From Lytechinus pictus (Eukaryota): a stretch of 64,000 nucleotides of DNA. The stretch lies in assembly GCF_037042905.1 (NCBI RefSeq), contig NC_087250.1:12402001-12466000 (forward strand), written 5' to 3'. The notes below the pieces were generated by a model that made no database searches, was not told the origin of the DNA, and saw nothing but the letters and a program-made list of their open reading frames with translations. Shown piece by piece: positions 31,386 through 56,609 of this stretch (positions are counted from its first letter, which is position 1; each line of letters begins with the position of its first letter). The translations under genes were made by a program, and so were the position numbers.

Positions 31386-32835
31386 TGACGTCACAATAAG
31401 ATCGGCTCCCTTATGTTGTTGTGCTCCGCGCGTGTGAAAGAGAGGGGCTTTATTATGTCTTTGCTTTTTGCTGTTTTTTTAATTATATGTTCGCTAAATA
31501 AATTAGTATTTGAAAGCAAGTCCAGTCGATATTGTGTAATTTCAGCAAGTGTATGGTCTTCCCCTTCTGGGAAGGACACACTGGAAAGAAACCTGTGTCT
31601 CACAGTGTGTTAACAGGTTTTTTTTTCTGTTTTGGACGCGGGTATCAAAAACACCGTTTTTCAAGCAAAAGGGTGGTTTTGAAAGACTGGTCAATGGTCA
31701 ATCGCAGCTCCAAATCAAAGCAATGGTATTGAAAAATAGTAATACCTTTATACCGTTTATACTGCATCTACTGGAAAAATACAGTTGTTCCTGCAGTCAA
31801 GTTTCCAGGTCTATCTTGTTGTCTTCCTATCTTGTTGTCTTCCTAGCTTGTTGTCTTCCTAGCTTGGATAAGTTCGAAAACTGAGTATGTGCTATTTGTG
31901 CAATGTTCTGACTGTTCTGACTGTTCTGACTGTTGCCAACTCAACACAAGACAGAAGAAGGAGCGGGGTCAAACGTATTTAGCTAGGGTATGTTTTTTCC
32001 AAAGCTTTTTTTAAGACTAGCCAAGCGTGTTTAGGGTATGTTTTTCCCCTAGGTTTTTCGCCGGGGTCATATTCTGGCGACAACTTGTTTAGGGGCCAAA
32101 ATGTATAATAAAGCCCGCGAAAAACTTGTTTAGGGGGTTATTTTGCACACAGAGAAAAAAACTCGTTTAGGGGATGTTTGGAAATAATTTGGTCACGCAT
32201 GTGTAGCGCAATACATTTGACTGCCCCCTCCCCCGGGTATACACCCCATATATTCGACAGCGAAATATCAGAAAAGCCGGGCTGGCCTATTTAGCTATGT
32301 GGGCTTGTTTATTCCAAACAAGTTCATACACCTCTTCCACATACCTATTCACACCCACGTCACTCTAGCATTGATAATACACGGATTATCCCATTGCCCC
32401 CAAACACGAGTTAAGGCGCTTTAGCGATCGATTTACAAGAAACTATTGATTAAAACTTTAAAAAAGAATTAAGATCGTGGCTCCACGCCTATTCACCTCA
32501 ATCGCCTTGTACCTCTTTTCATGTACTGCTCGGGGGTTCTATTCGAAAAATCTATCTGTGATTACTCAGGTATCAAAAACGAGAAGAAAACTGCACGCAA
32601 GTTGGGACATTGTATGAAGAAACGCACTCAAATCTTATTCAAAACCGCTCGACCCTGGGGTAAAACCACATGAAATCTTTGGTGTTTTTGTTCAAAATGC
32701 TGGCGGCTGTCTGCAACACATGATGCCTATGTTCTCGTAGAAACGCAGGGCTGTTTCAGTATATGGTTTGTTTTCCCGTTTGGAACTGTGCGTTTTGGAG
32801 GATCATAATAAATTTGGAATATATACCACTCGACG

Positions 32836-32866
32836 ATGCTGCGTCTTTTGATACCCTGTAACGACG
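32836..32866 (+). CDS. Second candidate first coding exon of RASEF
   Basis: ATG...MLRLLIPCND G|gtatgt ends in phase 1, also compatible with 37101. It is preceded by non-repetitive UTR-like sequence. Confidence 0.3.
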
Positions 32867-34258
32867 GTATGTAGTCCCGTATCCATGAAGCTCCTAAAGC
32901 TATATATGTACATGATGTATAACACCATGTACATGAAGCTCCTAAATCTACATGTATAATCCTTCTATTGATATGTTTTTTTATAATATCATATTAATGT
33001 AGTCGAAGTATAATGCCTTGAATGCATGCATCTTTAATTTACCTTGAAGGCCATAATTCATCTCATTTTTTCATATCGAACTTGGACGACAACGACGGCG
33101 AATGCCATTAATTCATTAATGTTAATGACGGTGAGGGTTGAAGGGTTAAGGCAGGGGGCGGCAGTGTTAGGGACGGGGGTTGCTGGGACAATTAGATCTG
33201 GAATTGAAGGAATGATTTTTGCCTCGATAGTTTTTTTTTTCAGTCAGTCCACTGCACTCTGACTGAAGTTGTTTTTGTTTTTGTTTTATTTTTTGTTTTA
33301 TTTTTACTTCCAATCTACTTTTTTTTTCTTAGTCACCTTAGGAGGAATCCTGTCTTTATTATAAATTCTGTCATATCTGGCCATATTGTAATCATATTAA
33401 TTTGGAGAGGAATGGATAGGGAAAAAAGAACAAGAAAACTTATTTTACCAAACACTTCACTTCACATAACCATCATTAATTGTCTAGATTAGGGAGGGGC
33501 GGTGTTACAATTGTGTTGATTTTGCAACAATAAAAAAAAAAAAGAAGCAAAATCAGTATTTTGATATTTGCAGAATTTCAACATATGTACTTTTCTATGC
33601 GTATAATGAGCTTATTTAGCTTGCTGATAATAATATTGCCCTTTCATCATGTTCATTTTCCATTAGCCATCAGTCAATAGTGACACCATCCAGCGATTTC
33701 TTTCAGTGTCATCATCGTCCATTTCATTGTCATCTCTCACGAAGCGATTCCCCACCCATGATCCCGATTCTTTCCATATTTAATCCATCAACCGTGATCG
33801 TCATCTATATCTTCTTCGTCATCCTTCCGTGGTCATTGATCCTCGATATCCTGATCAAAGCAAGCTTTGTCTTCCCCCTCATTATCGTCATCATCCATTT
33901 CATGAATACCATGTCAGGTACATCAGCGTTTGCTGTGTGATGTGTTGAATCCTTCCTAACGAGTCCCTTAAGGTCTAATAATGTGGATTTTGTCAAAACA
34001 TTAAAAGCTAACTAACATTTTTATTCTTTTTTTCTTCTTCTTAGTTGTGCATTTTTTTCTCTCTGAGGGAGTGAGTGTTTTATAATACCTTGGATGTAGG
34101 CATTTAAAGTTAATAACTTATTTGCCTCTCGACGGCTTCTCACGAAGAGTTCTGAACACTTTTAACTTTATATCAATTTGTTTTGTTTGTTTGATGTGTC
34201 CATTGCGATGATGATTTTAAAGTAACGTAAATGCTATATGATTGATAGACATACACTG

Positions 34259-34513
34259 CACTCTAAAAAAACATTGAGTAAAATGCTCCAGGAGGGTAAT
34301 TATTTGTCCAACCCACATTGGGCATTTCGTTTGGGAATTTTTATTTATCCAGTGTGATGAAAATTACGCCCATTCTAAAGTAATTGCTGCTTTTTATTTT
34401 AACCTTACTGGACAATATGCTTCCCACATTGGGTAAAATACTTCCCAAAATTGGTTGGACACATAATTACCCTCGTGCTGGTTAAGATTTTACCCAATAT
34501 TTTTTTTCCAGTG
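34259..34513. mobile_element. CACT-ended MITE
   Basis: CACTCTAAAAA...TTTTTCCAGTG; an opposite-orientation homologue lies at 59224-59475. Confidence 0.75.
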
Positions 34514-37100
34514 ATGAGGAGGAGGAGGATGATAAGAAGAAGAAGAAAAGTTTTTAGTGTTTGTATTAATATTTGTTCAGTGGAACCATTAATTTTCTTT
34601 CAAGATATCCTTCTTCTACCCTTTCTGTGAAAGCCATATTTATCACCAATAAGGCCAAGATAACGTGTATTTGATTTCAATGCTTTACAATTAGTAAAAC
34701 AAAAAAATTGAGGGTCCCTGACGTGACGTATGGGGTAAAATTTCAACACCCCCCCCCCCCAAAAAAAAAAAACGCTGCGAGAGAGCAAACCTTTTGACCC
34801 TTTCAATACATGTACAAAGTATCTAATTTCGTGATAGATTTGAACATAATATTCAGAAAATAATATCATATTTCATCTTTCTCCTTTCATTTTCTTTCCT
34901 TTTTTTCTTAGTTGTGATTTTTTTGGGGTCCACACCCTCAAGCCCCACCCCCTTCTGTACGCCGATGCTTGGTCTGACACGACTGTTGAGATAAAGTTTG
35001 CAAGATCAGATCTGTGATGTTGGCTATCATCATCATATTGATTTCCTTCAACATCGGTTCCTCTAGACAGAACAAAATGACATTTAGGTCCCACCCTTTT
35101 ACCATTCACTGACCTTCTTTACCTACAACTGCATTATGTTACACCAGTGAATGAGTTTGAGCATTTACCCAGTTATGTTAGGACCTTTTCACACGTGAAT
35201 CTTGAATGATGATTGCAGGCGTTCGTGATTCAAATCATGTTCTAGTCTGGTTCCACACATGCTAAAAATTCGTCATCAGCCTTATTTTCACTGGAATCAT
35301 TCAAATTAGATTTTTTTTTTCCGTGTGAAAGGGCGGTTAGATAGAAGGCCTTTCCATACGTGAATCTTGAATCATCATTGTAATGATGATTGTTATTGTA
35401 ATCGTGACTGTGATTAGCGTTCGTGATTCTAATCATGTTCTAGTTTGGTTTCACACGTATTGTACTCAAAATTCGCCATTAGCCTTAATTTTCATTGGAA
35501 TCATCATTCAAATTACGATTTTTTTTACCGTGTGAATGGGCGGTTAGCTAGAGTTGTGAACATGGTGAATAGCCTAGCATTTTTAATTCCATACTTCAAT
35601 TCGATTGCTTGAATGGAGTTATATTTGCCGAATATGAACATAATTATGCTATTCATCTTACTTATCTGTATAATCTTACACTGTTTAATATGTTGTTTTA
35701 CGCACACTATTGATTTATAGTCATTGTTTCACCCAAATGTCCATTTCCTATAGTGCCCCTATTAATTCAGGACTTTCATTTCAGTGGTTTTTATCAGTGA
35801 TAAATACGACTTGCAGTTTATAACTATATTTTTCCGTTCTGATAACTTTAGCATTTTAGACATTTTCGTGTTATCATATATGTAAAACTAGTTGTTTGTT
35901 CATGTTACTAATCATTGCCTAGATAATGACTAAGAATTTGATTTTATTTACATGTATGGTATTGATTATTTTTGTTAAAATCTTGATTCTGTTATCATCA
36001 GGTCATTGATGAAAAACTGTTTTTATGCTGATCTTTTGTAACTGACTAAATTATATTCTAATGAATAAATATATAAATAAACAAATAAATTAATAAATAA
36101 GTAAATAAGTAAATGAATAAATAAGTTAAAGGAATAAATAAATAAAAGAATGAATGAATAAATAAATAAATAAATGAATAAATAGATAGATGAATAAATA
36201 AATAAATATATACATATAAATAAATACATACATAAAGTAATATCTCAGTTTAACGAGTTGCTTACTAAAGGTGCTATCCATATGCAAAGGCAATTGGATT
36301 TAAGAGATCTACTATTCAATGTGTTAATGATATCATAAACACGTATTAGATTAATCTTATTTATGTTATGCGAAAGCCACACTGGTGAATGCGTCCCCCC
36401 CCCCCCCATACCATCCAAATTTATTACATCGTTTCTAATGTCACGCATTAGGTTGGACAATAGTGCAGGTAGGTGTTTCATAAAGCTGTTTGTAAGTTAC
36501 GAGCGACTTAACAAACGACTTATGATCGTTTCTTAGGTGCTGAATAATCATCAATGAAAATTCGGCGCATATTAATTTGAAACAAGAAAGGATCACCAGT
36601 CGCTCATAATTTACCAACAGCGTTATGAAACACCCACCGGTTCTTGTAAGTGACCGTAGCATAAACAAGTTAGATTGTTTTAATACGTGTTCATAGTAGC
36701 ATTAACACATTGACTAGCATATGTCTTAAAGCCAATTGAGCCAATTGTATTTTCGTAGGGAAAATCCCGTTTTAGTGAGCAACCGGTTAAAACCAGGATT
36801 ACACCAAAACCGAATTCTCCCGAATAAAATTCGGACCGATTCTAGCCGAATTAGTCCTAATTCGGATGGTTCCGGTGGATTCGAATGTTTCTGAATCCTT
36901 GCTGAATTTTCTCGCATTCACGGAAGGAGACCAGAATACTCCCATAACCACCCAAATACGTGTATTCGGATGGATTCGCAGCTTATTCGTTTCCGGTGTA
37001 ACCCGGCCTTCCTCGACATAAAGGTAGGTTCAGGGATATCCCTGGTAGGTTATAAGAATCCAGAATCCATTGTAAACTTGTTTAATCTACTTTCTTGTAG

Positions 37101-37294
37101 GTTCAAGGGCGTCATCGGATAACCTGGAAGCACCTACAGATATGGGCAGCGCCACCAACGGTGGTCCAAGTCCAGAGGCCATTCAGCAGTTGTTTGATGC
37201 ATGTGATTTGGATGGTAACGGGTATATCGAATGGGAAGAGCTGGAGATGGTCTGCGAGAATCTGGACAGAGATGAACTCGAGCATATATTTGAG
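37101..37294 (+). CDS. RASEF: RASEF alternative N-terminal module A, exon 1 (EF-hand 1)
   Basis: ttgtag acceptor, in-frame ATG at 37142, GAG|gtcagt donor. Reads IQQLFDACDLDGNGYIEWEELEMVC, a canonical EF loop. Confidence 0.85.
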
Positions 37295-37914
37295 GTCAGT
37301 GGTGATTCTGCAAATCGGAATATTGGAAGGTGGGGGGGGGGGGGGGGGGGCGGTGGCCTCCAATGTGACAAATAGTTTAAGGTACTGTGTGATCGAAGAA
37401 AGATTAGCTGTTACTTGTTTAGGTCATGCTGGTAAGTGGACACTAAACGAGTAATTATTTCTTTGATCTGAGAGTACCTTAAAGTATTTTTCACATTATC
37501 CCACCGTAAACGATGTCTCGAATATTCTGCAAAGACTAGCTGCCTTGTAAAGAGTGCCAGGTTTGAGTCAAATATACCTACTTCCTAGCCTTAACTAGCA
37601 GCCTTAATTGCACCACCCAAAGTCCTCAATTTCTCATAGCTGGCCAGGTTTCTAACCATGACATCCCGAGCAATATAGTCTTACAAAATATAAGCCCACT
37701 TGAAAGATTTTCACACCAAATAATAATCCTGTTACCAAGCTGAAAAAAGGTACCCTTCCTTTAAAAAAAACATTCACGTTTATCTATACAAATTAAATTA
37801 TTGGCTGCTTTATTTTCTGTATTATCTCAAAAGGAATATCGACTAGCTATTTATAACAAACAGTCAATAAGCGATCACCCGTTTTTTTCAATTCGTCTTA
37901 TGCAAATTCTCCCA

Positions 37915-38275
37915 ATTGCCAACTCGTCCAATATCGTTTGGTCTACCATCAGTTCGTCCACTATACACATGGTCTAATAGCCAATTCGTCATCTCACCAT
38001 TTCGTCTAATAACCAGTTGGTCCATTCGTCATTTAGTCCATTTTGGTCTAATTGGACTAAATGTTAATTGTGCAAAATGAACGAAAATGAAATTGGAATG
38101 ATATTAGAACAACTGGTTATGAGACGAAATGGTCATAGACGAAATGGTGATTAGACGAAGTGATGATCGGACCAAATTTATGATTGTTTGACGAAATGTT
38201 GGTGGATGGAATAGCATTAGACTAAATGAAAGTAGACCAAGTGGTGAGTGGACGAGTTGGCAGTAGACGAATTGT
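37915..38275. mobile_element. Foldback-like MITE with internal short repeats
   Basis: GCCAACTCGTCCA / TGGACGAGTTGGC ends; repeated TAGACGAAATGG motifs and their complements. Confidence 0.65.
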
Positions 38276-38365
38276 CAATTTCACAATCACCCACACCGAT
38301 TGGTCAGTTCGGCCCTCCTTCAAATGATTCTTCTTCTATGTTTTCCATTTTTTTTTAAATTCTAG

Positions 38366-38553
38366 GCTTTAGATGGAGATGGTGATGGGCGAATCAGTAT
38401 CACCGATTTCACTGAAGGTTTCCACAGTGTCAGTGAAGCTCTCCTGTCCGTCAGCCGTCGTAGGCGGCGCCAGCAATATCTACAGGATTATGACAGTGAA
38501 GAATTTGAGGTCTTTCTGCAACAATTGGGACCTGATTTTGACCTCGTGTCATG
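38366..38553 (+). CDS. RASEF: RASEF module A, exon 2 (EF-hand 2)
   Basis: ttctag acceptor, TG|gtgagt donor (phase 2). Reads ALDGDGDGRISITDFTEGF...FLQQLGPDFDLVS. Confidence 0.85.
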
Positions 38554-40248
38554 GTGAGTCTAATAATATCCATACGTGGTATTTGTGATGATGACAATTA
38601 AGTTTGATTCAGTAAGTAATAAATCTATTATTTTGAAATGTTATGAATAATGCACTGTTTAAATGTATTAAGACATGACTTATTTGACAGATTAAGAACA
38701 GAAGTAGCAATGCACATCTGTTATCAATGATCAATTAAAAAAATGGGCGGGATTAAATCTGCATACAATAGAAACTATACTTGAATATAATTTTTATATC
38801 ATCGTCTTTTAACAAGAAAACAAAACGAAGATGAATAGGAGAAAACTGCTTTTCAGGTGTATAAGTAGAGCAACTATCTACTTACTCGAGAATGTCCGTA
38901 TACTTTTACAAATCATAGTAATGAATCATTACATTGCCATAAAGAAGTAAAAACTGATGAAGACAAGAGGTGAAAAAGTAAAGATGAAAGGGAAGGCATA
39001 TACCTTACTTACACTGTTAGATCTGAGAATGATTGATGTTTATTTTGAACACCGTCATGCAACAAGGGCAATTGGGCCAAACGTAATACGAAAAAAAAAA
39101 TGCCCCCAAAATTGTCTGGTTGTGTCTATGTTTTCCATTGTCTAAGCTCGGATTGTCATATATTTGGATATAAATTATATGGTAAATAAAAGTGATAATT
39201 TTTAACCGTCATTGCTAGAATAATGAGGGCATTCCCCCTTCCGCCTCCAATTCCCCCCCCCCCCCATTATTTATGTCCTTTTATTACTCGGCTTTGAACA
39301 TAATAACCCGAATTTCGACAAATATAAATGAGTGGATGAGAGGATTAATTAACGCATGAAACAGGGCCCATAGATCTGCATTGTCACATCAACTAATAGT
39401 TAAATAAGATTTTATGGCTATGTCATATCTCTGCATAAGTATGAAAGCGAATTTAATTCATAATCGCAATGGCAGCAAGGCCATCTTCTGGTGACGTACA
39501 CTTGATAAATTATTTTTGAAAATTGTATTAGTGTATTATATTTTATATAATAATATACAAGTGTATTATATATATATATATTTAACTGTTAGAAGTGCCA
39601 TTTCTTCCACGATCTGGTAGCATACCAGTCGTCAGGTGTGAGGTGGGTTTTAAACTGGATACCGTCAAAATCCTCTACATCCAGCGATCGAGATTAATTC
39701 CGAATATTCATGGAGCTTAAATATAAATACATAAGAATAAAACATCTGAAAAAGCCAACAAAATAATAATAGATTAATAGTGTACGTTTTTAATTTCACT
39801 CGCTGCTATGGAGTTTCTTTTTTTTTCTCTCTCTCTCCATAATATAATTGTCAGCTTACACAGTTACACATAATTGTTTGATTGAATTCGATACTTGATC
39901 TCAGCATAAGTATAGTGTTACTATGTTATTTAATTGGATTTTTAACAAGTGGGTTGTGACAGGTGTTATACATAATAATGATATAATATGCAAGCGGGTT
40001 TTGCTTTTATTGACATTGAAAATTCAATCCGCTCTGTTTATCATCGTCCTTGCCAATTACACCGAGCAACGTAAAAGTAGAAATACAGTATTTTTTGTAA
40101 CCATTGTATTAAAAGAACGGCTATACCAAATTTAGGAACCTGGGATTCCTAGAAATGTGCAATAAATTAATATGAGCAGTAACCATACAATATTTTTCGC
40201 GCCTGAATGCTAGTACATTAAGGAATTTCCGGTGAAGAAAAAACACAT

Positions 40249-40674
40249 TAATCGCTAGAGGGTATTCATTTGTCTCGCAATCTACTATGGTCAACAAGGA
40301 AATTCGTGATCACTCTCGCAAAAAGTGTTCACTAGCTTACAAGTTCACGAGCTTTCGAGTGCCGCTGCAACTCTTTATCAAGTGACGAAAATTATCTGAT
40401 AACGTAGTCTATTTATACCAATCCCCAGGACCGTACGCACGAACGCGGGACTTGATAAAGAGTTGCAGTGGCACTCGAAAGCTCGTGAACTTGTAATCTA
40501 GTGAACACTTTTTGCGAGAGTGATCACGAATTTCCTAGAAAGCTAGTGAACACTTTTTGCAAGAGTGATCACGAATTTCCTAGAAAGCTAGTGAACACTT
40601 TTTGCGAGAGTGATCACGAATTTCCTTGTTGACCATAGTAGATTGCGAGACAAATGAATACCCTCTAGCGATTA
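40249..40674. mobile_element. Penelope-like element remnant (inverted pLTR pair)
   Basis: Near-perfect inverted arms of about 135 bp, each with a hammerhead-like core; 45-bp triplication in the right arm. Confidence 0.65.
40345..40385 (-). ncRNA. Minimal type I hammerhead ribozyme motif (U3-A8 variant)
   Basis: Minus strand reads UCAC-UUGAUAA-A-GAGU(ugcagcggc)ACUC-GAAA-GC-UC-GUGA: stem I UCAC/GUGA, stem II GAGU/ACUC, palindromic AGCU stem III. Confidence 0.6.
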
Positions 40675-41014
40675 TTTCATTCCGCAATAATGAACCTATT
40701 TAGTTTTAAAAAACACTTTGTTCCACACTGTGTCCAACAGCAAGTGTGTTCACAGTGTGGAACACAATGCGAAACTATATTCACACAGTTAAATTTGACC
40801 ATTTTAATAGTCAATCACGTTTTCTTTATCGTCTGAATGCTACTTCATGCATTTGATATACTCCTGCTGTAAAGTGTTCCACAGTGTGTTTCACAATATG
40901 TTAACAGTGTGGACCACAATGTGAAATCACCATTTTAGAAGTGTGAATTACATTTGCACTGTGAAAACACTGAACACCCATACTGTAAAGATGTCTAGAG
41001 TACGAAATAGTAGT

Positions 41015-41305
41015 AATCACTATCATCATCATCCTCATCGTCATCATCAGCATTCTCGCCATCATCATAATCATCGTCATTATCAGCATCCTCACCATCA
41101 TCATAATCACCATCGTCATCATCATGATGAAGATGATAATGATCATCATCATCAAAATCATCATCACCATCACAATCATCATCATCATCATCACAATCAT
41201 CATCACAACCACCACCACCACCAACACCACCACCACCACCATCATCATCCTCAACATCATCCGGAGCATCACTACTTCGTCATCCTTGTTATCGTCATCA
41301 TTATA
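41015..41305. repeat. (CAT/CAC)n microsatellite
   Basis: Direct inspection. Confidence 0.95.
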
Positions 41306-42177
41306 CTCACAATATGATAACCATTCCCTTACTAGTATACCCTGTACCTATACTGACACTGCTTTTTTTCTTTTGAGACACTCTGTACATGAACACCTGT
41401 TGCCTAACAATTTTTGTACACGGAATACATATACCGTGTTTCTGTTTGCATTTGAGTATACGTTTATGCTACAGTTACACCAATGCAACCGATTCCAAAC
41501 CGACCGATGGTATGTCATTGGTAATAACGTAATAGCTTTAATCGGCCTAGAGTGTGTCAGAAAGGTGTAACCGTAACATAAACGTTTGCCATGCATAATG
41601 TGGCTGTGTGTAGTTTGAGTAATACAACAAATATCACGTCATGCCCAGCTACACTTACGACGGATAATAAAGGATTGTTGTCAGTTTATAGCATCTAAAA
41701 CTTCACACCTCAAACAATACAAAAAACTGAAATATTATATACCTTCTATATTGTATCTTATCAATAGCAGGTCTCGGCAGATTCTAAAGTTACCTTTTAA
41801 AGAAATATTTGACTTTAAATGTTAAAGAATGGGCGAAATGACCAATACTGTTTCAGCTCGTCCTAAGATTATTTCTTTTTAGATAGTTATCAAAAATGGG
41901 CTATGGTTTTTTGAAAGAGAAACTATAATGCTATTGAGAGGAATATATTAGTTCGCTACTAGACGATATTGAGTAGTGAATTATAATGTGTTATCATCGA
42001 AGTGGGCCTATATTACAAGACTACACTGCTAAGAATGTTGCATTATGGGTAAGGCATCTGGCCAGGTTTGAGAGGTTGAGGATTTGGTGCCATTTAAACC
42101 TGCTAGTTCGTATCTGCTTCAAAACTTAGAATATACACACGCGCCTAGCCAATAGTCATTCTAGGCCTATTGTAGAT

Positions 42178-42445
42178 GTATTGTCGCCCAGTGGGTAGGT
42201 CTCCGGACCTTGCACCACAAGGTCCGCGGTTCAAATCCCATCGCTGCACTTGCGTTCTTTGGACAGGCATTTATCTACATTTGCCACTCTCCACCCAGGT
42301 GTAGTAAATAGGTACCTGGTAGGAAATGATTCCTTGAATGCTTGAGCGCCCGGTGAGAATGTCAGTGAAGCCTTGTTAAAACATATACGCAACGCTTAGA
42401 AACATTGTTTTGAGAGATAAACATTAAATTATCATTATTTATCAT
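42178..42445 (+). mobile_element. tRNA-derived SINE
   Basis: GCCCAGTGG A-box, GGTTCAAATCC B-box, CCACCCAGGTG...GGTACCTGGTAGGAA core. Confidence 0.75.
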
Positions 42446-43741
42446 AATAGTCATATATTTTTACATTATTCACATTTAAAAATGAATGCGGGTCTCCATG
42501 GAGATATAAACTAATATCATTTACGTCACCAGTCGTGCGTTAATATACATGTATGCCCTGCTGTTTTCAAGAAATGTCAATACCCTGAGGTTTAACAGTG
42601 TAAACTCTGAGTTAAGTGTATATACCAATTGACATTTAGACGGTTGGAGGGGGGGGGGGTGTCACAAGTCGTTAGAAGGGAGGCACCGTGCTTGTATGCA
42701 TGTACATTGAAAAGATCCTTAAACAAGACGAAACAACCATCTGAGAACACCCAAACGAATTTTATATTTTCCCCTCCATAAATAATATCTCAAATATTTC
42801 ATCTCCATGATAACCAATTTTCGCGTTTCTAGGTCGAAAACCCCCCACTTTTCTCAGATTTTTGCATTTTTGATACAAATTTAAATGTTCATATAAAGTC
42901 AACGGGTAGACAAAAACAACCCCTTTTCATTTTTTTTCGCTTCAAAATGAGAGTATACAATACCGACATAGATTTTCATCAGAGCTGCATCGCTGCGAGA
43001 AGTGAACATTTCCTTTAATCTTACTTAAGTGTGAAACACGGATGTCGGTTAACAATGCAACAGGTCCTCTTTTTTTAATTACCAGTGTGTCGTATTACTG
43101 TTCCTCGTCGTCATACGAAGTGTGTCCGTTCTTAATCACAACATCTCGCAACAGGTGTGCTCCCTGCCAGTGTTTGATTGAATGCAGAGCGGCATGTATC
43201 AGCTTGTGGAACTAGCATATTAATTTGGAGTTGAAACAAGTTGAAATTGCAGCCAATCGCAGAAGGAAAAGAAGGAAAAGAAGGATATTGCCCTGAATTT
43301 GGATTTTTATTTTGGAAATAGACCCATTCATTGGAAATGAATCCCAGAAGTGGATCCAGTGGCTCTAGTAGTTTGTTTAATTTATTTGAGATGAAGTCTG
43401 TTTCATTTGGATAATTGCTACGCCATTCCAGTTTTGCTGGTGACGTAGACCAAGTGTTGAGCTGATGTTGCAGTTGGAACAGTCTGCACAGGATCCGAGC
43501 ATAATCGTTTACTACTCTATTAAAAATAGTGGAAAGAAAGGGGAAACATTTGTTTTGTCTTCAGCATTCCTTAGATTAACCACAATTTCATCTTAAAGCT
43601 CATCTGAATCTATATTTAAAAAGAAAACCCAACAACGCCAACAACGAAACGTGGCAATCCTGAAAATGGGGTCATATGGATAAGTAAATATTTTTGGATG
43701 TAGGCGATTGGTATTCTGGGAAACACGATTACAAAGGAATA

Positions 43742-44175
43742 ATGGACGAATCACGTATCCGACACCTCTTCGAAGTCTGCGATCTCAACGCGAGCGGATA
43801 CATCGAGTACGACGACCTCCGCGATCTCTGCCTCGGCAGCGACCTGGAGATCACCGACGCCGAGCTCGGCAGCGTGTTCGACGAGCTCGACACCGATGGC
43901 GACGGGAAGATAAGCGTTGAGGAGTTCGAGCAGGGCTTCCAAGGGGTGGAGGAGCTGCTCCGACGGAAGGTCAAGGCCAACAGTAGCGGTGGTGGAGGAG
44001 TGTCGACAGGGGGGCAAGATGGAGTTGATGGGGGTAGCGATGGGTCCAAGAGGGGGCAGAAGAAGGGGGAGAACAATAATACCGTGACTGGTAGAGATGG
44101 GAAGGCTAACCAAGCCTACACGGCGTGGCAAAGCCTGGTGACCAGCCTCGGACCGGGCGTTACTCTTCTTCCAAG
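43742..44175 (+). CDS. RASEF: RASEF N-terminal module B (two EF-hands in one exon)
   Basis: Reads MDESRIRHLFEVCDLNASGYIEYDD...LDTDGDGKISVEEFEQGF...AWQSLVTSLG. GC-rich codon usage; AG|gtgcgt donor in phase 2; resembles vertebrate RASEF exon 1. Confidence 0.9.
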
Positions 44176-47100
44176 GTGCGTACTATATACGGCAGAATTC
44201 AATTCCAAAAAAATCAATTCAATTCAATTTATTTTCCACATATTGAGTAAAAAAACATACAATATCAGTACAATCAAATGCATTCATAGATAATAACAAT
44301 ACAAGTATAAAGAGTTACAATATATTACATTAAAAATTGAATTGCATTGAATTGAACTTGCCAGCCCAAGGGGGGGGGGGGGAGCGGTATAACCCTTTAA
44401 ACCCCCGTACATGTAGATCTGCCACTGATCGTACGTTTTATTTTACGTCATTACAATAAGACGACGTCATTACATTTACATGTCAAAATCATAAGAAGAG
44501 TTACAATTTCCATGAATATGAACCCAAGTTATGATTTAAAACAAGGCAAAGTAAGACGTTCCATATTTCAATATCAACATGATAATTCGGGGAACATTTA
44601 TGACGTCTTATTCGAAAATCAGGTCGCAAGGCAATCGTAAGGTTTGCGGTGGTCCTTATAGAAACGAGTTATGAATTTTTGAGTTCATTATCCCTTACTA
44701 CATTTTTAAACGAATGCGCAAAAAAAATTAAATGATGCTTTAACTTTTAAAACATATATTTTTTTATGGAAGAATAAGCAGAATACAACATATAGTGGGT
44801 ATGAAAGTTATAAATAATGTTATTGATTTATCTATTTATTTATTTACTCGTTTATTTATTTATCCATTTATTTATTTCGTTTTATTTATACAGGGTGCCC
44901 CCGTCAGTATTCAGGCTACTGTTTTCCAAGGGGCCCTGTAAACAGATATTTTCAACATAACAAGCAAACAAATAAACATAACAATATGAATGAACAATAC
45001 AAGCAGAATAATCGTAACTTTATATGGTATTTATGTTTATGTATTTAGTTTTCTGAGTTTATCGGGTTTAATTGTATGTTATTCTATTATGATAAGGGCT
45101 ATATATTTGAGTAAAATGTAAAGATATAGGTCGATGTAAATCTAAAAGCTGATGAAAGAGGAGGAGCGAATATGGAAAACCTTGTCAGTAGGGCCAAAAT
45201 TTTCTTGACAAAGAGTACATAATAATAATGATGATAATCCGGGAGCACTTAAACGTAATTTATCATTTCTGACGACCCCTTCTTTTTCCCTCAAAAAGGG
45301 AAAAGGGTAAGAAAAAGTCATCGAAATTTTGTTGGTGTCGGGGAGGATAGGGCACCTTGCCACCTCTGCCCACCATCTCAATCAAGCTTGTGATTATGAC
45401 ATGTATGAGGGGTGAATGGAATCGCTATAAATATACGACTTTGGGATATATCCTACCTACCTCCACGGCTCACTAAATGAAAATTTACGATTTTAAATAT
45501 TAAGACTGTAAAAAGTTAAAGTACAAGTGAGAACTAACCATTATGTAGCTTGAACCAAAAGAAAAATAATAAAATCATGAATAAAATAGCATTAAGGATT
45601 ATTTCTTTGCTTTTACGAGCCGGTTTATTTTATAACTTTGCTACCGATTTCGGCTTAGATTATACCGTCAAGAAATGTATTTATTTATTTATTTTGTTTT
45701 ATTCATTTTATACTGCAGGGTAGGCCTGTTCAGTTCTTAAAACTGCTTTACAAAGGCGCCATGCAGTTTAAAATACATGTCAAGATAACTATGAACAACA
45801 ACAACAAACAACATCAAAAATACAAAATACAAAATATCTAACATCAGAAACTATTAACACCAAAATATAGAGTGGGAAGTGACAATTTAAACATACATAG
45901 CATTGTAAATCAAAGAAGTAAATAATTAAACAAATATACCAACCACAAACATGACAAATTTAGCAATATGCCTGCGTAATACCATTTACAAAGTAATTTA
46001 TGCACATTTACACTCAGCAAGTAGTACGCGGTGTACCATGAAATTAGGGGCGGCGCAAGTATGTTCTGATTAAGGGGGAGGGGGTGAAAGAATAGCTAAA
46101 AGTGACGCAAATGTTTCTCATTGAAACACAAAAGTGTATTATAAATTCATACGGCCCGGTCGCCTGGATATTCTTCCTGAATATAAATATTTGTTATTTT
46201 CTTTTAATTGTTTACTGTTACTCTCATTTTCTTTCGTATTATTATTATATATTACTGTTATTATTATTATCATCATCATCATCGTTATTATCATTTATAG
46301 TTAAGACTTGTTTATACAAGGTAGCCTCATCAGTGACGCACACTGTCCTCCCAGAGGCCCCTGTTACATGTAAGCACACACAGATACATGTAAAAAAATA
46401 ACCCAAAACAAAGGAGAAAAAAAACTCCAAAGGTACAAAAAAGAATAAAGTTTGCCGAGTTGTTTCGTAACTCTAGGGTTAAGGACTTAGGGTTCTACGA
46501 TAGGTTGAAATGAAAGATTTCATTTTTCAAACACCCTTTTAATATGTTTTGATCAAGTAAAAACAAAATGGGCGGCCGTGCCAATGCCTCCCCCCCCCCC
46601 TCCTGTTGCACCACCAATGCGTGGGATATTAAATAATATCCAACCCTGTCACGGCCGTTGACGCCAGATGGAGCTTTCTCATGCATAATACATACATAAA
46701 CGTGATATTCCGAGTATTTACTGTACACACAATACACGATATACCTTTCTGATGAAGTGTGTGCGAATATACATATATATATATTTATATTTAATCCTGT
46801 ATAGCATGCATAAGAATTATCAGTATACACCGAGATATGAAATGTCATTGTATCGTCATACCATGAGTTAAAGAAGGAGTTATTTTAAAACAACTAGCAA
46901 TGCATTCCCAAACATGCAGGCTGTCACAAAATTTAAAATCTTAGCTGTAGCAATGGGTTCATGTGTAAACTTCGGGATTGTTCATTTTTATTCGAATAAA
47001 TAAATGAATAAATAAGAAAATGATAGAATTATACTTTTAGTATCCCCTTCCACATCTTTACGGAGCAGTATATTCAGTGATGGAGATACCCCCGCGGATT

Positions 47101-48374
47101 GATATTATAAACGTATTACGTATTCTATACCAAAGCAATATTTATTCTATATACGTATGTAGATTGTTTTCCCTGTTAGTCGTTATCTTTTTGTGAACTT
47201 AACATGCAATCTACTTTTCAACAGAGTTATCATAATACACTACTCTTTGAAGAAGGTTTTAGAATAGTTAAATCCCACCCCATAACTAATAACTTTCCAT
47301 TAAAAAAGAGAAATAAATATCAAACTAGCATAACACGGACAAATTTATAACATTGGACATAAAACAAAAAAAAGTATTCGCTTTTGTTTAGCCCCAATGT
47401 GCACAATATTCCAAATCTTGGAGGCAATGTAATGCTATATCAACATGAGTGTATTTCTTTTCATAAAACACGAAAGATTTCTTTTTGTAATTCAAAACCT
47501 GTCACTATTCAGTAAACCTCTAAGATCTCAATTACTGTATACATGAAGGTAGCATCTTTATAATCGAATAAAAAAATGCGTTTTATTAAATAGTGGATCT
47601 TCAATGATCATAAACTACGAAATATATCATGAATGAGTGAAAACATGGATTTATCATTTTACCTATTACTCGCGATGTGCATGTCATCATAATTTTGTTC
47701 AAATTAAGCCAAACATAGAAATGTCATAAATTGTTTATCTTACATTACATTTTGATGGAATGATGCATTAGATAATGTTTACCAAATAGATCACGCCGGC
47801 AGCACCAGCTGCAAAATTAGCAGAATGACAAATAGATCGGACTTTGAACATATAGCACGGTTTTCATATTTGGGTTACTCGTCTGACGGTGTCCAAATTT
47901 GCCGTCTATTATCTCATGACGTCACAAATCTAATAGTTCTGATTTCGTTCAATATTTCCCCATTTAGTATTTGAAAGTCCGTTTTCTTTTTAAAGGCTTG
48001 TTGTTCTCATCTGAAAATGGAGTACAATATTTATCCCTATCTTTAATCAACTGAGGGCCATTACTTGTACTTCTACCTTCATTAAATCGTTAAAAACGTA
48101 CTTGTTCTCATGTTGAATTATGTGGGATATGAAACGTGCATTACAATAATAATTTGTTAATTTTCCATTTAATATATATATATTTTTGTTTACAGTTACT
48201 GGTATTACACTTAATTATTTGTATGTAAAGCACGGAGATTCTGTTGAATATTATGCGCTATATAAGCATCTATTGTAATAATTATAATTATTTCAAATTT
48301 TAGTGAGCTAAGTTTATGTGATTTTCATTGATGGTGCATTGAGCACCCTTGATGTGGTGGATATGTTGTTGGGC

Positions 48375-48427
48375 ATTATTAATATTATTATTATCATTAT
48401 TATTATCATTATTATTATTATTGTTAT

Positions 48428-48473
<46 letters not shown>

Positions 48474-48576
48474 GGTGGTATTAGTATTATTAGTATTATT
48501 ACCATTATAAGCATTATCCATATCCGTTTTAATTTACAAGTATTTAGATATAAATTAATTAATGTAGTATTAGTAA

Positions 48577-48635
<59 letters not shown>

Positions 48636-48774
48636 TTTATTACCATTATAAGCATTATCCATATCCGTTTTAATTTACAAGTATTTATATATAAATTAAT
48701 TAATGTAGTATTAGTAGTAGTAGTAGTAGTAGTATAAGTATTAGAAGTAGTAGTAGTAATAGTAGTAGTAGTAA

Positions 48775-48829
<55 letters not shown>

Positions 48830-48895
48830 ATTAGTATTATTACCTTATCATTATCCCTATCTGTTTTAATCTACAAGTATTTAGATATAAATTTA
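48375..48895. repeat. (TAG/TAT)n microsatellite with a repeated unique spacer
   Basis: ACCATTATAAGCATTATCCATATCCGTTTTAATTTACAAG occurs at 48501 and 48642, with a diverged copy near 48842. Confidence 0.9.
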
Positions 48896-49144
48896 TGACT
48901 GTCTAATCTGCATTGATGTTTGAAAAAGATTTACAACTGAATGCCAATTCTTCCATTCCATAAATGGTTGACACGTGCAGGAAATATCCAATCAATATAA
49001 ACAAAAGAAATCTTGGAAATTGTATTGTTCTCGTGATGCAAATGGTATGCGCAAGCATTCCACACGCTTATTTATTCTCAATGTTTGTTTGCCGAAATGA
49101 GTCGAGTTAGTTTTGTTTAAAAATCCTGACATATACGATTTCTA

Positions 49145-50124
49145 CAGTGCGTATCAAAAAAAAGTTTACACTTTGAAAAAGCACTGGGAATTAAAGAATA
49201 TACAACATGTGGGTAATTTTTTCACATATAATATTGGGTTTGGGTCTCATCTATCCAATGAAAGTAAAAGTTTGTATAGAATGTTATACTTGAGTGAGCA
49301 CTGTCCATTTTTGTAAAGCTCGCAGAAATCTGTTTGCGCAGAAATGCTCGTTTTCACGCTGTGTCAATGGGAAAGGGCAAAATCAAACTTACCCTGCGAA
49401 ACATTTCTCATACATTTCCCTTGCACTTTTAGTCAATTTAAATAAAATGGATACATTCAAGCATTTTGTAACAGTTTTGCCACCCAAATTGAAATTTTAA
49501 CACTTAGTAAGCACAATGTTTACACTTTATGTGCCAGCTGGATCTGAGGACATAACTGGATCTGAACAAAAGTTTACATCAGACATCTCCAGCATTTTCA
49601 CTAAGTTTCTATTATTCAAAGTGGGTTCATTTTTCATTTAATACTTGTTTCTCCACACTTTTTCCAATCTTGACAATGATTAACAAAATGAAAATCATGC
49701 CTAAGCCATTCCATGTAAATCACAGCTCGATCAGTGTAAAGCAAATATCGTCAAGATGGCCTCGGTGTGTTGGGGAGTGGGGTGGGGCGCAATGCACTCT
49801 TCGAAGTGATTTGGGCAAGGAAACAAGTTAAAAAAGATAAAAGATATCTTCAAATCAAATTTACTAGCTAAATTCCATGTGTTCTTCATGATTAAGGTCT
49901 ACTCTTATTTCCACAACTATTTCAAAGTTCTGCGCAAATCATTTTTCACTAACTTTTCAAAAGTAAGTGGTGCTCACTCAAGCGGAAATATTTTTCGACA
50001 GTTATATCGTCATTTGCTTAAATGGATCTGTACCAATGTTAAAATGTGGAAAATTCCTCAGTATATTACAAATGTATAATTTTACAGGATTTTATCTAAG
50101 TGTAAACTTTTTTGATGCGCACTG
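49145..50124. mobile_element. Tc1/mariner-type non-autonomous element
   Basis: TA|CAGTGCGTATCAAAAAAAAGTTTACACTT...AAGTGTAAACTTTTTTGATGCGCACTG|TA. Confidence 0.85.
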
Positions 50125-51024
50125 TATAGTAGTAGGTATAAGAACAGTTGCTAAATCTACTACTAAGTATATATTAATGATACCAAATTCCCATGTCTTC
50201 AATTTTCTAACACAATTAAGTTCCACGACAGCTTTACCATTTACAGCTTTTATCATTATTTAAAAAAATTCATTGATTCTTTTAGCGAAGTCTCAAAAAC
50301 ATACGCCTACATTATGCACATAAAGTAAATCATTATCATTTTTGTTTACATGGCAAGAGCAAACGAAACAGTATGAGCAGTGTAACATGCTGGTCAGGGG
50401 TGAAGAAAACATAACAAATAGCTGTTGCTCAAAAGCATATCCCTCATATAGCACTGAGCATCATTATATTTATTTAAAAACAGACATACACAACCGATTC
50501 AATCAGATTTAACATTGATTAATTATTGTCAACTTCGTTTTCATTTTCTAACCGAACTTTCTTCTTATTATTTTCTTAACAAACCGTGCGTCGTATAATC
50601 TTATTTGGGATTTTAACCATATATAATAAATTCGGTAATTTTAGCAATTTTGTCGAATTTTAACTCTTACCTTGGTCACATTTGCTCTACGGTGGCCGTA
50701 CGGCGAGTCGAAAACAGCCGTTTTATTAATTTTAATTAAAACCACCTATATGAAGTTGGGCAAAAAAAAATGTGACCAAGGTATTACTGCTGTACCATTT
50801 TTCTACAGGCTTTAACTTGTTTAAGATGATAAGACTGTACACGTACCCGAGTTTGTATATATAATTACCTTACTTTGCATGTCAACATAATCCAGCATTA
50901 GTGTTTGTATAAGAAAGGTCAAAATGGTTGAAATACACATTTGATGAGATGCGCCACGGGTATATTTGATTAATATCATGTGAAACATATGGATGAAAAC
51001 GGCCATGAGAGGCCTAAGAGAGCA

Positions 51025-51781: not shown

Positions 51782-51931
51782 CCAAGATCAAATTTGTGAG
51801 TTGTATCAGCAGCTCCATTCGTCGGAGGTGCCTCAAACACTTCGCCAGTATGAATCCGTTATCTATGACGTCATAAAGGATCTTAGGCAATACCAGTCAG
51901 AAGTCGATAGGTTAGAGAAATCATTAAAGAG
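51782..51931 (+). CDS. RASEF: RASEF exon
   Basis: tttcag acceptor, AG|gtaagc donor. Reads QDQICELYQQLHSSEVPQTLRQYESVIYDVIKDLRQYQSEVDRLEKSLKR, like RASEF EQVSTLYQ...YEHVI. Confidence 0.9.
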
Positions 51932-52342: not shown

Positions 52343-52433
52343 GACAAATGAAAGCAATACCGAGCACCTACAGCAGCTGGAGTATGAGATGGAAGTACAG
52401 ATGACAAGAACAGAACAGAGAGTTAGGAAGGAG
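52343..52433 (+). CDS. RASEF: RASEF exon (coiled coil)
   Basis: ttgcag acceptor, GAG|gtaaga donor. Reads HLQQLEYEMEVQMTRTEQRVRKE. Confidence 0.9.
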
Positions 52434-52459
52434 GTAAGAGCATAGTACTGAATGAAGAT

Positions 52460-55313: not shown

Positions 55314-56609
55314 ATGGATCTCAGCTTTAACAGTCTTAAGGCTGCTTGGAGCGATGTTACCGAATCGCTCGGTGAGGCTGGTGAGGCCTTCAAGTCGCTG
55401 ATGACGGATGATTTCTCTCAGCCCGTACCCGCTCCTAAGCCTTACGATGCATCCGCCCATAAGTACAAACCAAATCAGCAGGTTCCACAGACGTCAAAGG
55501 CAACAGGGCAGCTTCAGAGACCGACAGGGAACACTGCAGCCAAGCAGAATCTGTCATCAGGTCTTCCACAAAATGCATCCGTCAATAAACAATCCAGTGG
55601 TGCAGTAAATCCACAAAATGTTCACCAGAATGGAATGGAGCAGAAGTCACAGCCCTCCCTACATCACCAACAGGGTCGTTCTATTTATGAGCCGTACTAT
55701 GCCCCGTCGCCAAGTTTTCCATCTGCTTCTGACCAAATCAGGGCTGCTCTTCAGAAGACTGCAGCACCAAAGCCCACAGAGGCTAAACAAATCAATGATA
55801 CTTCAAGTGGTATGATGAGTTCTCAACAGAAACAAAATCTCTCTTCAAATCATTCTACAATTAGTCTCCACGGGAATGAACACAATCTTAATCAGAATTC
55901 AGTAGATAATACTTCCCGACTGTACAAACCACCACCTTTCACAGATGAACATACTAATGTTGCACCACATTCTTTGCCTACAAATGACCAAATGTGGGCA
56001 ACATCCACCACAAATCTGAAGACACTGCCGAAATACTACAAGCCAACACCTTTACTTGCTCATTCTAGTCAAAATGCAGCTCATGGTCTCCAAGGAATTA
56101 ATCATGGTGAATCTCTGCTAACACATTCCATGTCCAATGACACATTACCGAAACATTTCAAACCATCCCCTTTGGTCGGACATTCGGGAATATCTTCAAG
56201 CTCTGGACCGTTGTCCAAAAGTGGCAAATTTGATACGCACCTGACGGATGTTCCGAATGAAGGAATTCTGAGTCACGAACCACACACTTCACTGTCAACT
56301 CGATCAAAATCAGTGTCTGATCTTAAGAAAGCGGACTCTACACCCGATCTTCAACGGGTTAGCAGTTCATCCGGCTTCAGCAGTGAGCATTCTAGCTTCC
56401 AAAGGCCAATCCCGCATAAACCGCTTCGAACCAGATCAAGCTGGCAGGATCTGAACTTGCACAAGTCAACACCGGACCTAAGAAGATGTGGCATCAGCCC
56501 AGGACCTGGATATGAATCTCCAGGAGCAGTAGTTCTTTCAAGAAGGAACTCGATAGGGTCAAGGCCCAGAGCATGGCGATCTTTATCGAGGGGACCAACC
56601 CCATCTCAG
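55314..56609 (+). CDS. Putative alternative first coding exon of RASEF (432 codons, S/P/Q/H-rich, likely disordered)
   Basis: Longest ORF in the window. In-frame TAA at 55290 precedes the ATG, and CAG|gtaaaa at 56609 is phase 0, joining exon 56956 in frame. Confidence 0.7.

What the first reader, a model, noticed from the sequence alone, without database searches (positions are those of the whole stretch)
37101..44175. RASEF has two paralogous, mutually exclusive EF-hand N-terminal modules
Seen: module A (exons 37101-37294 and 38366-38553) and module B (single exon 43742-44175) each encode an EF-hand pair followed by a similar 'LGP' tail (FLQQLGPDFDLVS vs LVTSLGPGVTLLP). Both end in phase 2, and both join exon 51782 in frame. 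The two AGs in the open frame upstream of B's ATG (43703, 43736) are phase 1, so A cannot splice into B to give four EF-hands. Known: vertebrate RASEF/Rab45 has one EF pair encoded in exon 1, like module B. Inference: an intragenic duplication produced a swappable Ca2+-sensor head on a large Rab that may act as a dynein adaptor. The choice could be made by alternative promoters, or by mutually exclusive splicing from a phase-1 leader (31132 or 32866).
Basis: partly seen in the sequence, partly recalled or inferred. Interest (0 to 1): 0.8.

Follow-up and report, generated by a model that had tools for sequence, protein, structure and literature searches.

The report
Sea urchin RASEF: two alternative EF-hand heads
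The sea urchin version of the large Rab GTPase RASEF/Rab45 can start with either of two related calcium-binding heads joined to the same body; this is real and old, but public gene models already record it.

Summary
The window is Lytechinus pictus and holds the 5' part of its RASEF/Rab45 homologue. Module A (37101-37294 + 38366-38553) and module B (43742-44175) each encode an EF-hand pair. They are 44% identical over the pair with no significant DNA similarity. Both join exon 51782 in frame.

RNA reads and contigs show GT..AG junctions 32866>37101, 37294>38366 and 38553>51782. Head A is therefore expressed, starts from an upstream leader exon, and was the main form in the two raw RNA runs. B>51782 rests on RefSeq proteins 100% identical to the window.

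The feature is not new to databases. L. pictus RefSeq models already carry head A (P0258, P0259) or head B (P0260). The same head pair on a 99-100% identical body occurs in eight taxa, including starfish, crinoid, sea cucumber, amphioxus, a bivalve and a coral. So the duplication is ancient, at least as old as the deuterostome ancestor.

The heads differ reciprocally in a calcium-ligand residue. No paper describing the pair was found. Any functional difference is inferred.

The parts
32696..32866 (+). Leader exon 1 of the head-A transcripts. Its 5' end is not mapped. It holds an in-frame ATG at 32836 (MLRLLIPCNDG...) and ends with one base of a codon.
   Evidence: Junction 32866>37101, GT..AG: X17 contig, 21 reads in X21, 12 reads in X22. 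X17 contig covers 32696-32842. Sequence. The N-terminus equals RefSeq P0259 and S. purpuratus P0013.
33758..33917 (+). Alternative leader exon 2 (coding part). ATG at 33758, encoding a hydrophobic 53-residue extension (MIPILSIF...MSG). Donor after 33917, also one base of a codon.
   Evidence: ATG, donor, in-frame join to 37101. It corresponds, with a few substitutions, to the start of L. pictus RefSeq P0258, and is similar to L. variegatus P0010 and S. purpuratus P0012. Depth was low in the runs laid.
37101..37294 (+). Head A, exon 1: internal Met at 37143, EF-hand 1 (DLDGNGYIEWEE) and the entering helix of EF-hand 2.
   Evidence: Junctions on both sides. Reads are strand-specific (depth 11.1 against 0.02 in X21).
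38366..38553 (+). Head A, exon 2: EF-hand 2 loop (DGDGDGRISITD), RRRRRQQ patch and the tail FEVFLQQLGPDFDLVS. Ends with two bases of a codon.
   Evidence: Junction 37294>38366 (21 and 17 reads, 2 contigs) and 38553>51782 (16 and 18 reads, 2 contigs).
43742..44175 (+). Head B, a single coding exon from its own ATG: EF-hand pair, Gly/Ser-rich linker and the tail AWQSLVTSLGPGVTLLP. Ends with two bases of a codon. It lies inside the 13.2-kb intron of the head-A transcripts.
   Evidence: 100% identical to the start of RefSeq P0001-P0003 and P0260. Highest CpG density of the 30-58 kb region at 43601-44000. Depth was low in the runs laid.
51782..51931 (+). First common exon (QDQICELYQQLHSSEVPQ...), which accepts either head.
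   Evidence: Junction reads from A. RefSeq proteins for B.
52343..52433 (+). Second common exon (TNESNTEHLQQLEYEMEVQMTRTEQRVRKE).
   Evidence: Matches P0001.
55314..56609 (+). Third alternative 5' coding exon without EF-hands: 432 residues, Ser-rich, no Pfam match. It would join exon 56956 (ERERIESEK...), skipping both heads and the first coiled-coil exons.
   Evidence: ATG, donor, in-frame join. Homologous N-termini in P0017 and S. purpuratus isoform X5 P0015. No Pfam family. No reads were laid on it.

Best explanation
This is the 5' half of the single Lytechinus pictus RASEF/Rab45 homologue. RASEF is a large Rab GTPase: EF-hand pair, coiled coil, then a Rab domain (the Rab domain lies beyond the window).

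The gene has alternative, mutually exclusive 5' modules.
- Transcripts from an upstream promoter carry a leader exon, ending at 32866 or less often at 33917, followed by head A in two exons.
- Transcripts most likely starting at a second promoter, inside the long intron, begin with head B in one exon.
- Either head splices to exon 51782. The same coiled coil and Rab domain therefore receive one of two EF-hand pairs.
- A third 5' exon (55314-56609) would give a form with no EF-hands.

The two heads are old paralogues, about 40% identical, kept side by side at least since the common ancestor of echinoderms, hemichordates and amphioxus. Vertebrate RASEF retains only the B type.

Inferred, not shown: by analogy with human Rab45 and CRACR2a, the head binds the dynein light intermediate chain helix. 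The heads would differ in ion gating. Head A has a canonical Glu at the last calcium ligand of EF-hand 1 and Asp in EF-hand 2. Head B has the reverse, which is the CRACR2a pattern.
For: - Identity of the gene: head B is 100% identical to L. pictus RefSeq 'ras and EF-hand domain-containing protein' isoforms. These have an EF-hand pair plus a Ras-family domain, E 6e-49.
- Head A expression and splicing: GT..AG junctions 32866>37101, 37294>38366 and 38553>51782 have 12-21 strand-consistent reads each in two raw RNA runs. They also occur in contigs of two further runs. One 1240-nt contig runs leader-A1-A2-exon C and 653 nt beyond.
- Relative level: depth over A was about 43-45 at 37180-37204. The bin holding B had mean depth 0.79 (X21) and 0.04 (X22).
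- Same architecture in annotation: L. pictus P0258 and P0259 carry head A, P0260 carries head B. In 8 of 8 taxa compared, the two isoforms share a 99-100% identical body but have heads only 27-43% identical.
- Mutual exclusivity: 5 of 188 proteins with a head match have two separate head regions. None of the five is a RASEF homologue.
- Age: no significant DNA similarity between A and B. L. pictus head A is 58% identical to starfish A and 45% to amphioxus A, against about 39-44% for A versus B within a species. In the tree of heads, an A clade has support 93/88. CRACR2A/EFCAB4B heads are split off at 100/95.
- HMM scores: amphioxus, mollusc and brachiopod heads are A-like. Vertebrate and arthropod heads are B-like.
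- Reciprocal ligand pattern and inter-loop spacing: A heads, 10 of 10, are E/D with 20 residues. B heads, 9 of 9, have D in EF-hand 1 and 8 of 9 have E in EF-hand 2, with 22-24 residues. CRACR2A-family heads, 6 of 6, are D/E with 22-23 residues.
- Literature (passages read): Rab45 and CRACR2a are dynein adaptors, and only CRACR2a is calcium-gated (PMC6504896). The CRACR2a EF pair binds the LIC1 helix, only its second EF-hand binds Ca2+, and Asp cannot replace Glu at the last ligand (PMC7655957).
Against: - No 44175>51782 junction appeared among the 15 joints shown (56 were not shown). B had too few reads in the runs laid. B splicing in this species therefore rests on RefSeq models.
- B's transcription start is unmapped. 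The one contig running from 43568 into B (X1, depth 4.3, 16 mismatches) could be unspliced pre-mRNA of the A transcripts, because B sits in their intron. The CpG peak at B is only suggestive.
- The tissues or stages of the runs are unknown, so 'A dominant' holds only for those samples.
- Dating beyond deuterostomes is weak. The tree uses 109 columns. An AU test does not reject a duplication confined to Ambulacraria (p 0.059) or to deuterostomes (p 0.173). These groups were named after the tree was seen.
- Coral, nematode and arthropod heads mix A and B characters.
- No binding, calcium or localisation property of either head was tested.
Confidence: 0.85

Rival explanations
1. There is one promoter and mutually exclusive splicing. 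The phase-1 leader (32866 or 33917) splices either to A1 at 37101 or to an acceptor just upstream of B's ATG (AG at 43703 or 43736).
For: The arithmetic allows it. Both leaders end with one base of a codon. An exon starting at 43704 or 43737 needs exactly one. The frame upstream of B's ATG is open from 43688.
Against: All 9 ambulacrarian B-type proteins, and the L. pictus models, start at a Met 5-8 residues before EF-hand 1, with no leader peptide. No 32866>437xx joint is among the joints shown. The densest CpG cluster of the region lies on B's start. An X1 contig runs unspliced from 43568 through both AGs, but it could be pre-mRNA.
Confidence: 0.1
2. Head A belongs to a separate upstream EF-hand gene. 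The A>51782 junction would then be read-through or chimeric splicing with no protein of its own.
For: A lies 5-6 kb upstream of B and has its own leader and ATG.
Against: A>C junction reads (16 and 18) are as numerous as the A-internal junction reads (21 and 17). Contigs continue 650 nt past exon C. Full-length A-head proteins with the Rab domain are modelled in L. pictus, L. variegatus, S. purpuratus, starfish, crinoid, sea cucumber and hemichordates. Head A is more conserved than head B: 96% against 87% identity between L. pictus and S. purpuratus.
Confidence: 0.02
3. The two heads come from a recent, lineage-specific intragenic duplication in sea urchins or echinoderms, with similar pairs elsewhere arising independently.
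For: AU tests do not reject trees that confine the duplication to Ambulacraria (p 0.059) or to deuterostomes (p 0.173). The two coral head types both fall inside the A clade and may be a separate duplication.
Against: No significant DNA similarity and only 44% protein identity between A and B. Both types occur in echinoid, asteroid, crinoid and holothurian gene models. Amphioxus has both types on one shared body. Each type is found in an enteropneust (A in Glandiceps and Ptychodera, B in Saccoglossus). Each type keeps its own spacing, tail motif and ligand pattern.
Confidence: 0.05

Closest known systems
RefSeq isoform models of the same gene (L. pictus XP_054757690.1 and XP_054757232.1 with head A; XP_063956992.1 and relatives with head B) and of its orthologues
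   Same: The exon content is that of the window. P0259 starts MLRLLIPCNDG..., the same as leader 1 plus A. P0258 starts with leader 2 plus A. P0260 and P0001-3 start with B. All continue into QDQICELYQQLH.
   Different: These are automatic predictions with no description. The newer L. pictus proteins that my searches returned (isoforms X1-X4) are all head B. Here the A junctions were checked on reads.
Human RASEF/Rab45
   Same: EF-hand pair, coiled coil, Rab domain. Head B is the vertebrate-like head. It hits the solved RASEF EF-hand domain 2pmy_A at E 2.3e-10. Vertebrate RASEF heads score higher with the B profile than with the A profile. Rab45 is a dynein adaptor (PMC6504896, passages read).
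   Different: Among vertebrate representatives with an EF-hand head, none had an A-type head. One partial fish protein, P0088, scored weakly toward A. The isoforms described for mouse differ by the presence or absence of the EF domain, not by a swap (PMC8303950, passages read).
CRACR2A/Rab46 (EFCAB4B)
   Same: A large Rab with an EF-hand pair that binds the dynein LIC1 helix. It has the same D/E pattern at the last calcium ligands and the same 22-residue spacing as head B. The tail motif F..(L/M)...LG is also shared.
   Different: It is a separate, old paralogue family with its own mollusc and cnidarian members. It is split from all RASEF heads at 100/95. Head A is therefore not a CRACR2A-like head.
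EF-less short forms of large Rabs (mouse Rab45-S, Rab44-S)
   Same: The window's third 5' exon (55314-56609) would give a RASEF form without EF-hands, as S. purpuratus isoform X5 does. This parallels the short mouse forms (PMC8303950, passages read).
   Different: The urchin exon adds a long Ser-rich region with no Pfam match. Its expression was not examined.

Membership tests
RASEF/Rab45 (large Rab GTPase) | N-terminal EF-hand pair | tested here: met
   Pfam EF-hand_7: head B E 5.4e-16. Head A in P0013 E 3.2e-12. A1 peptide EF-hand_6 E 2.8e-07.
RASEF/Rab45 (large Rab GTPase) | C-terminal Rab domain with prenylation cysteines | tested here: met
   The domain is not in the window. In the RefSeq proteins that start with the window's exons, Pfam Ras scores E 6.3e-49 (P0001, residues 566-732). 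The C-terminus is ...GCCDF.
RASEF/Rab45 (large Rab GTPase) | Central coiled coil between the EF-hands and the Rab domain | not tested
   No coiled-coil predictor was run. The exons at 51782, 52343, 56956 and onward align over their full length with RASEF homologues.
RASEF/Rab45 (large Rab GTPase) | Orthology to RASEF rather than to CRACR2A/EFCAB4B or RAB44 | tested here: met
   Best full-length hits are all named RASEF homologues. CRACR2A-family heads form an outgroup at 100/95. That family has its own invertebrate members.
Alternative first exons / alternative promoters | Each 5' module splices to the same downstream exon | tested here: met
   A: 38553>51782 with 16 and 18 reads and 2 contigs. 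B: indirect only, through RefSeq proteins 100% identical to the window.
Alternative first exons / alternative promoters | No transcript carries both modules | tested here: inconclusive
   No A>B joint among the 15 joints shown; 56 were not shown. No RASEF homologue with two heads among 188 head-bearing proteins. A>B is out of frame.
Alternative first exons / alternative promoters | A separate transcription start for each module | tested here: inconclusive
   A has upstream leader exons. B's start is not mapped. There is only a CpG peak and B proteins that begin at the exon's own Met.
Calcium-gated EF-hand dynein adaptor (CRACR2a type) | Calcium-ligand residues intact in at least one EF-hand | tested here: met
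   A: EF1 DLDGNGYIEWEE (Glu at the last ligand), EF2 ends in Asp. B: EF1 ends in Asp, EF2 DTDGDGKISVEE. This is judged by sequence only.
Calcium-gated EF-hand dynein adaptor (CRACR2a type) | Binding of the dynein LIC1 helix, and its dependence on calcium | not testable with these tools
No complex was predicted.

The most novel reading that the evidence does not exclude
The A/B head pair is a bilaterian-old, functionally split calcium switch on one Rab. Head A would sense ions through EF-hand 1. Head B would sense them through EF-hand 2, as CRACR2a does. Promoter choice would then give the same dynein-adaptor Rab two different gating rules. Vertebrates and arthropods would have kept only B, and most lophotrochozoans mainly A.
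Probability: 0.3. Interest if true: 0.6.

Novelty: already known. Interest (0 to 1): 0.33.

Why it matters
Large EF-hand Rabs (Rab44, Rab45, Rab46) are studied as adaptors that couple calcium signals to dynein transport. In mammals the difference between a calcium-gated adaptor (CRACR2a) and an ungated one (Rab45) lies between genes. In sea urchins, and in many other invertebrates, one RASEF gene offers two conserved heads with reciprocal calcium-ligand patterns. That gives a natural swap experiment on an identical coiled coil and Rab domain.

As a genome feature it is ordinary. It is a case of alternative 5' exons, and RefSeq already models it. Two searches found no paper that describes it. 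The wide conservation and the reciprocal ligand pattern are the only additions made here.

Tried and rejected
- the word-index search with the A1 peptide found no protein. This was a false negative. Searches show A-head proteins in the same database, including L. pictus. My interim idea that head A was unannotated was dropped.
- no RNA holder was listed on record for the head-A stretch. Four runs of unknown kind held 0.22-0.23 of the words, about the exon share of the stretch. This was used only to choose runs.
- no whole genome is held for this window, so paralogues elsewhere in the genome could not be sought.
- sequence searches of solved structures were dominated by calmodulin. B hit the RASEF EF domain 2pmy_A. 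A's top 60 did not include it. No CRACR2a chain was in either top 60. This is of little use for typing the heads.
- Idea that head A is a CRACR2A-like head: rejected.
- Idea that the coral head pair is the same A/B pair: left open. The second coral type has B-like spacing but an A-like ligand pattern. It sits inside the A clade on a long branch, and its HMM scores are near zero.
- AU tests: neither restricted-duplication tree was rejected.
- CpG profile: suggestive only.
- no earlier notes exist for this genome.
- Structure and complex predictions were not run.
- Supplements of the papers were not opened.
Full report
**What is there**

The window comes from Lytechinus pictus. The single-exon module B (43742-44175) is 100% identical to the N-terminus of RefSeq 'ras and EF-hand domain-containing protein' isoforms of that species (sequences). 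Those proteins have an EF-hand pair and a C-terminal Ras-family domain (Pfam Ras E 6.3e-49). The gene is therefore the RASEF/Rab45 homologue, and its Rab part lies beyond the window.

In the stated frames, A1+A2 and B each encode an EF-hand pair followed by a tail with LGP. Both end with two bases of a codon and read in frame into QDQICELYQQLH at 51782. That exon ends at 51931, and the next one is 52343-52433.

A and B are 30/68 identical (E 3e-19). They show no significant DNA similarity; the best match is 18 bases, E 0.07. The two AGs upstream of B's ATG would need one base from the preceding exon, so A2 cannot join B in frame (sequence).

**RNA evidence**

The one run search gave no holder on record as RNA. 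Four runs of unknown kind held 0.22-0.23 of the words of 37101-38553, and three raw RNA runs of the same species label were added.

Two contig sets (X17, X1) and two raw stranded RNA runs (X21, X22, about 6% of each read) were laid on 32000-51950. This gave three GT..AG junctions.

| Junction | X21 reads | X22 reads | Contigs |
|---|---|---|---|
| 32866>37101 | 21 | 12 | 1 |
| 37294>38366 | 21 | 17 | 2 |
| 38553>51782 | 16 | 18 | 2 |

- One X17 contig of 1240 nt reads leader (53 nt), A1, A2 and the common exon, then 653 nt more.
- Reads over A are strand-specific: 11.1 against 0.02 in X21.
- Depth at 37180-37204 was 43-45. The bin with B had mean depth 0.79 (X21) and 0.04 (X22), and its neighbours 0.04-0.06.
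- Head A was therefore the main form in these two samples, whose tissue is unknown to me.
- No B>51782 joint was among the 15 shown (56 were not shown). B splicing in this species rests on the RefSeq models.

**Leaders and starts**

The leader exon ending at 32866 contains an in-frame ATG at 32836 (MLRLLIPCNDG...). A second possible leader has an ATG at 33758 and a donor after 33917. It also ends with one base of a codon and encodes a hydrophobic 53-residue extension.

Both are used in public models:
- L. pictus P0259 starts with the first.
- P0258 starts with the second, with a few substitutions.
- S. purpuratus P0013 and P0012, and L. variegatus P0010, do likewise.

B proteins in nine ambulacrarian taxa all begin at a Met 5-8 residues before EF-hand 1. 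The densest CpG cluster between 30 and 58 kb lies at 43601-44000 (36 CpG, observed/expected 1.34). I read this as a second promoter for B, at about 0.75. It was not mapped. The X1 contig that runs from 43568 into B may be pre-mRNA, because B lies in the intron of the A transcripts.

**Not new to databases**

My first search with the A1 peptide found nothing. That was a false negative. A full-length search, together with cluster look-ups, shows A-head models in the following:
- L. pictus itself
- L. variegatus and S. purpuratus
- Diadema
- three starfish
- a crinoid
- a sea cucumber
- two enteropneusts

It shows B-head models in:
- L. pictus and S. purpuratus
- Diadema
- Asterias
- a brittle star
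- the crinoid
- sea cucumbers
- Saccoglossus

In 8 of 8 taxa where both forms were at hand, the two isoforms share a body that is 99-100% identical and have heads 27-43% identical. The eight are S. purpuratus, Asterias, Antedon, Diadema, Apostichopus, Branchiostoma, Dreissena and Pocillopora.

Of 188 proteins with a head match, five have two head regions. None of them is a RASEF homologue: three are EFCAB4B-like and two are unrelated.

**Age of the pair**

Head A of L. pictus is 96% identical to S. purpuratus A, 58% to starfish A, 47% to Ptychodera A and 45% to amphioxus A. Head B is 87%, 46%, 44% (Saccoglossus) and 35% identical to the corresponding B heads.

A maximum-likelihood tree of 61 heads on 109 columns, rooted on six CRACR2A/EFCAB4B/RAB44-like heads (split 100/95), gives the following:
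- An A clade at 93/88 holds ambulacrarian A, amphioxus isoform X10, mollusc and brachiopod heads, and both coral types.
- Ambulacrarian B, amphioxus X3, vertebrate RASEF and arthropod heads form an unresolved grade.

Profiles built from the ambulacrarian heads agree with this:
- Amphioxus X9/X10, Liolophura, Argonauta, Dreissena and the first coral type prefer A by 20-30 bits.
- Amphioxus X3, vertebrate RASEF and arthropod heads prefer B by 5-30 bits.

The names of key rows come: Branchiostoma, Salmo RASEF, C. briggsae TAG-312, Corvus CRACR2A, and Mytilus and Nematostella EFCAB4B.

The statistical tests are weak. A tree that confines the duplication to Ambulacraria is not rejected (p 0.059), nor is one that confines it to deuterostomes (p 0.173). 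The groups were named after seeing the tree.

I therefore claim the pair for the common ancestor of echinoderms, hemichordates and amphioxus. I regard an older, bilaterian origin as likely but unproven. The CRACR2A family is a separate old paralogue, so head A is not a CRACR2A-type head.

**What differs between the heads**

| Head | n | Last ligand, EF-hand 1 | Last ligand, EF-hand 2 | Residues between loops | After the EF pair |
|---|---|---|---|---|---|
| Ambulacrarian A | 10 | Glu (10/10) | Asp (10/10) | 20 | Arg-rich patch, SRRRRRQQ in most |
| Ambulacrarian B | 9 | Asp (9/9) | Glu (8/9) | 22-24 | tail with (A/S)W |
| CRACR2A-family | 6 | Asp (6/6) | Glu (6/6) | 22-23 | not scored |

Outside the deuterostomes the characters are mixed. 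Lophotrochozoan and amphioxus A heads are Glu/Glu. Coral type 2 is Glu/Asp with spacing 22. Nematode heads are Asp/Glu with spacing 20.

From the passages I read:
- Lee et al. (PMC7655957) report that the CRACR2a EF pair binds the dynein LIC1 helix in its hydrophobic cleft, that only its second EF-hand binds Ca2+, and that Asp cannot replace Glu at this ligand.
- Wang et al. (PMC6504896) report that both Rab45 and CRACR2a activate dynein, and that only CRACR2a needs calcium.

From this I infer, without any test, that promoter choice gives the urchin Rab two heads with different ion gating of dynein recruitment.

**Literature**

The review of large Rabs (PMC8303950, passages found by term search) describes isoforms with or without the EF domain or the Rab domain. 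It has no occurrence of 'invertebrate', 'phylogen' or 'first exon'. Two full-text searches returned no paper describing alternative EF-hand heads of RASEF:
- (RASEF, Rab45, EF-hand, alternative)
- (RASEF with alternative first exon/promoter, sea urchin, amphioxus, rsef-1)

In the rows listed, RASEF had zero occurrences. Papers outside the held library cannot be excluded.

**Verdict**

However, the feature is an old, conserved and already annotated case of alternative 5' exons. What remains open, and mildly interesting, is whether the two heads gate the adaptor differently and why vertebrates kept only one.

Noticed in passing
window 55314-56609 (+), joining 56956: A third alternative 5' coding exon of the same gene. 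It has 432 Ser-rich residues and no Pfam match. It would replace both EF-hand heads and the first coiled-coil exons. It corresponds to S. purpuratus isoform X5 (P0015) and P0017, and recalls the EF-less short forms of mouse Rab45 and Rab44.
   Followed up: partly
window 33758-33917 (+): The alternative leader exon encodes a strongly hydrophobic 53-residue N-terminal extension (MIPILSIFNPSTVIVIYIFFVILPW...). The open frame is kept in L. pictus, L. variegatus and S. purpuratus models. It may be a membrane segment or only an upstream ATG in a 5' UTR exon. Read depth was low in the runs laid.
   Followed up: partly
window 32698-32810 (+): The leader exon of the head-A transcripts carries several short upstream open reading frames before the in-frame ATG at 32836. 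The real start (32836 or 37143) is therefore open.
   Followed up: no
window 2358-12335 (+): Exons of a WD-repeat gene lie upstream on the same strand. The Pfam WD40 match is weak and below its cut-off (E 1.9e-05 for 3154-3333). By recall it looks like WDR76; this was not tested.
   Followed up: partly
window 5362-5723, 5951-6229, 7017-7370, 23490-23978: Repeated ORF fragments share the words LSYFTSDFDEIFSVMFVGFF and HNFLILHPILMKFS on both strands. This is probably a dispersed repeat or transposon relic. The copy that was scanned has no Pfam match.
   Followed up: partly
proteins P0146, P0176, P0212 (not in the window): EFCAB4B/CRACR2A-like proteins with two or four EF-hand pairs in tandem. 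P0146 is from Nematostella; the other two are unnamed. In that sister family, duplicated heads are kept in series rather than as alternatives.
   Followed up: no
window 40900-41400, 48300-48900, 52430-52720, 53900-54200: Long low-complexity tracts lie in the introns, with codon-like runs of His, Ile, Thr, Ser and Leu in all frames. Reads seemed cut at such repeats.
   Followed up: no
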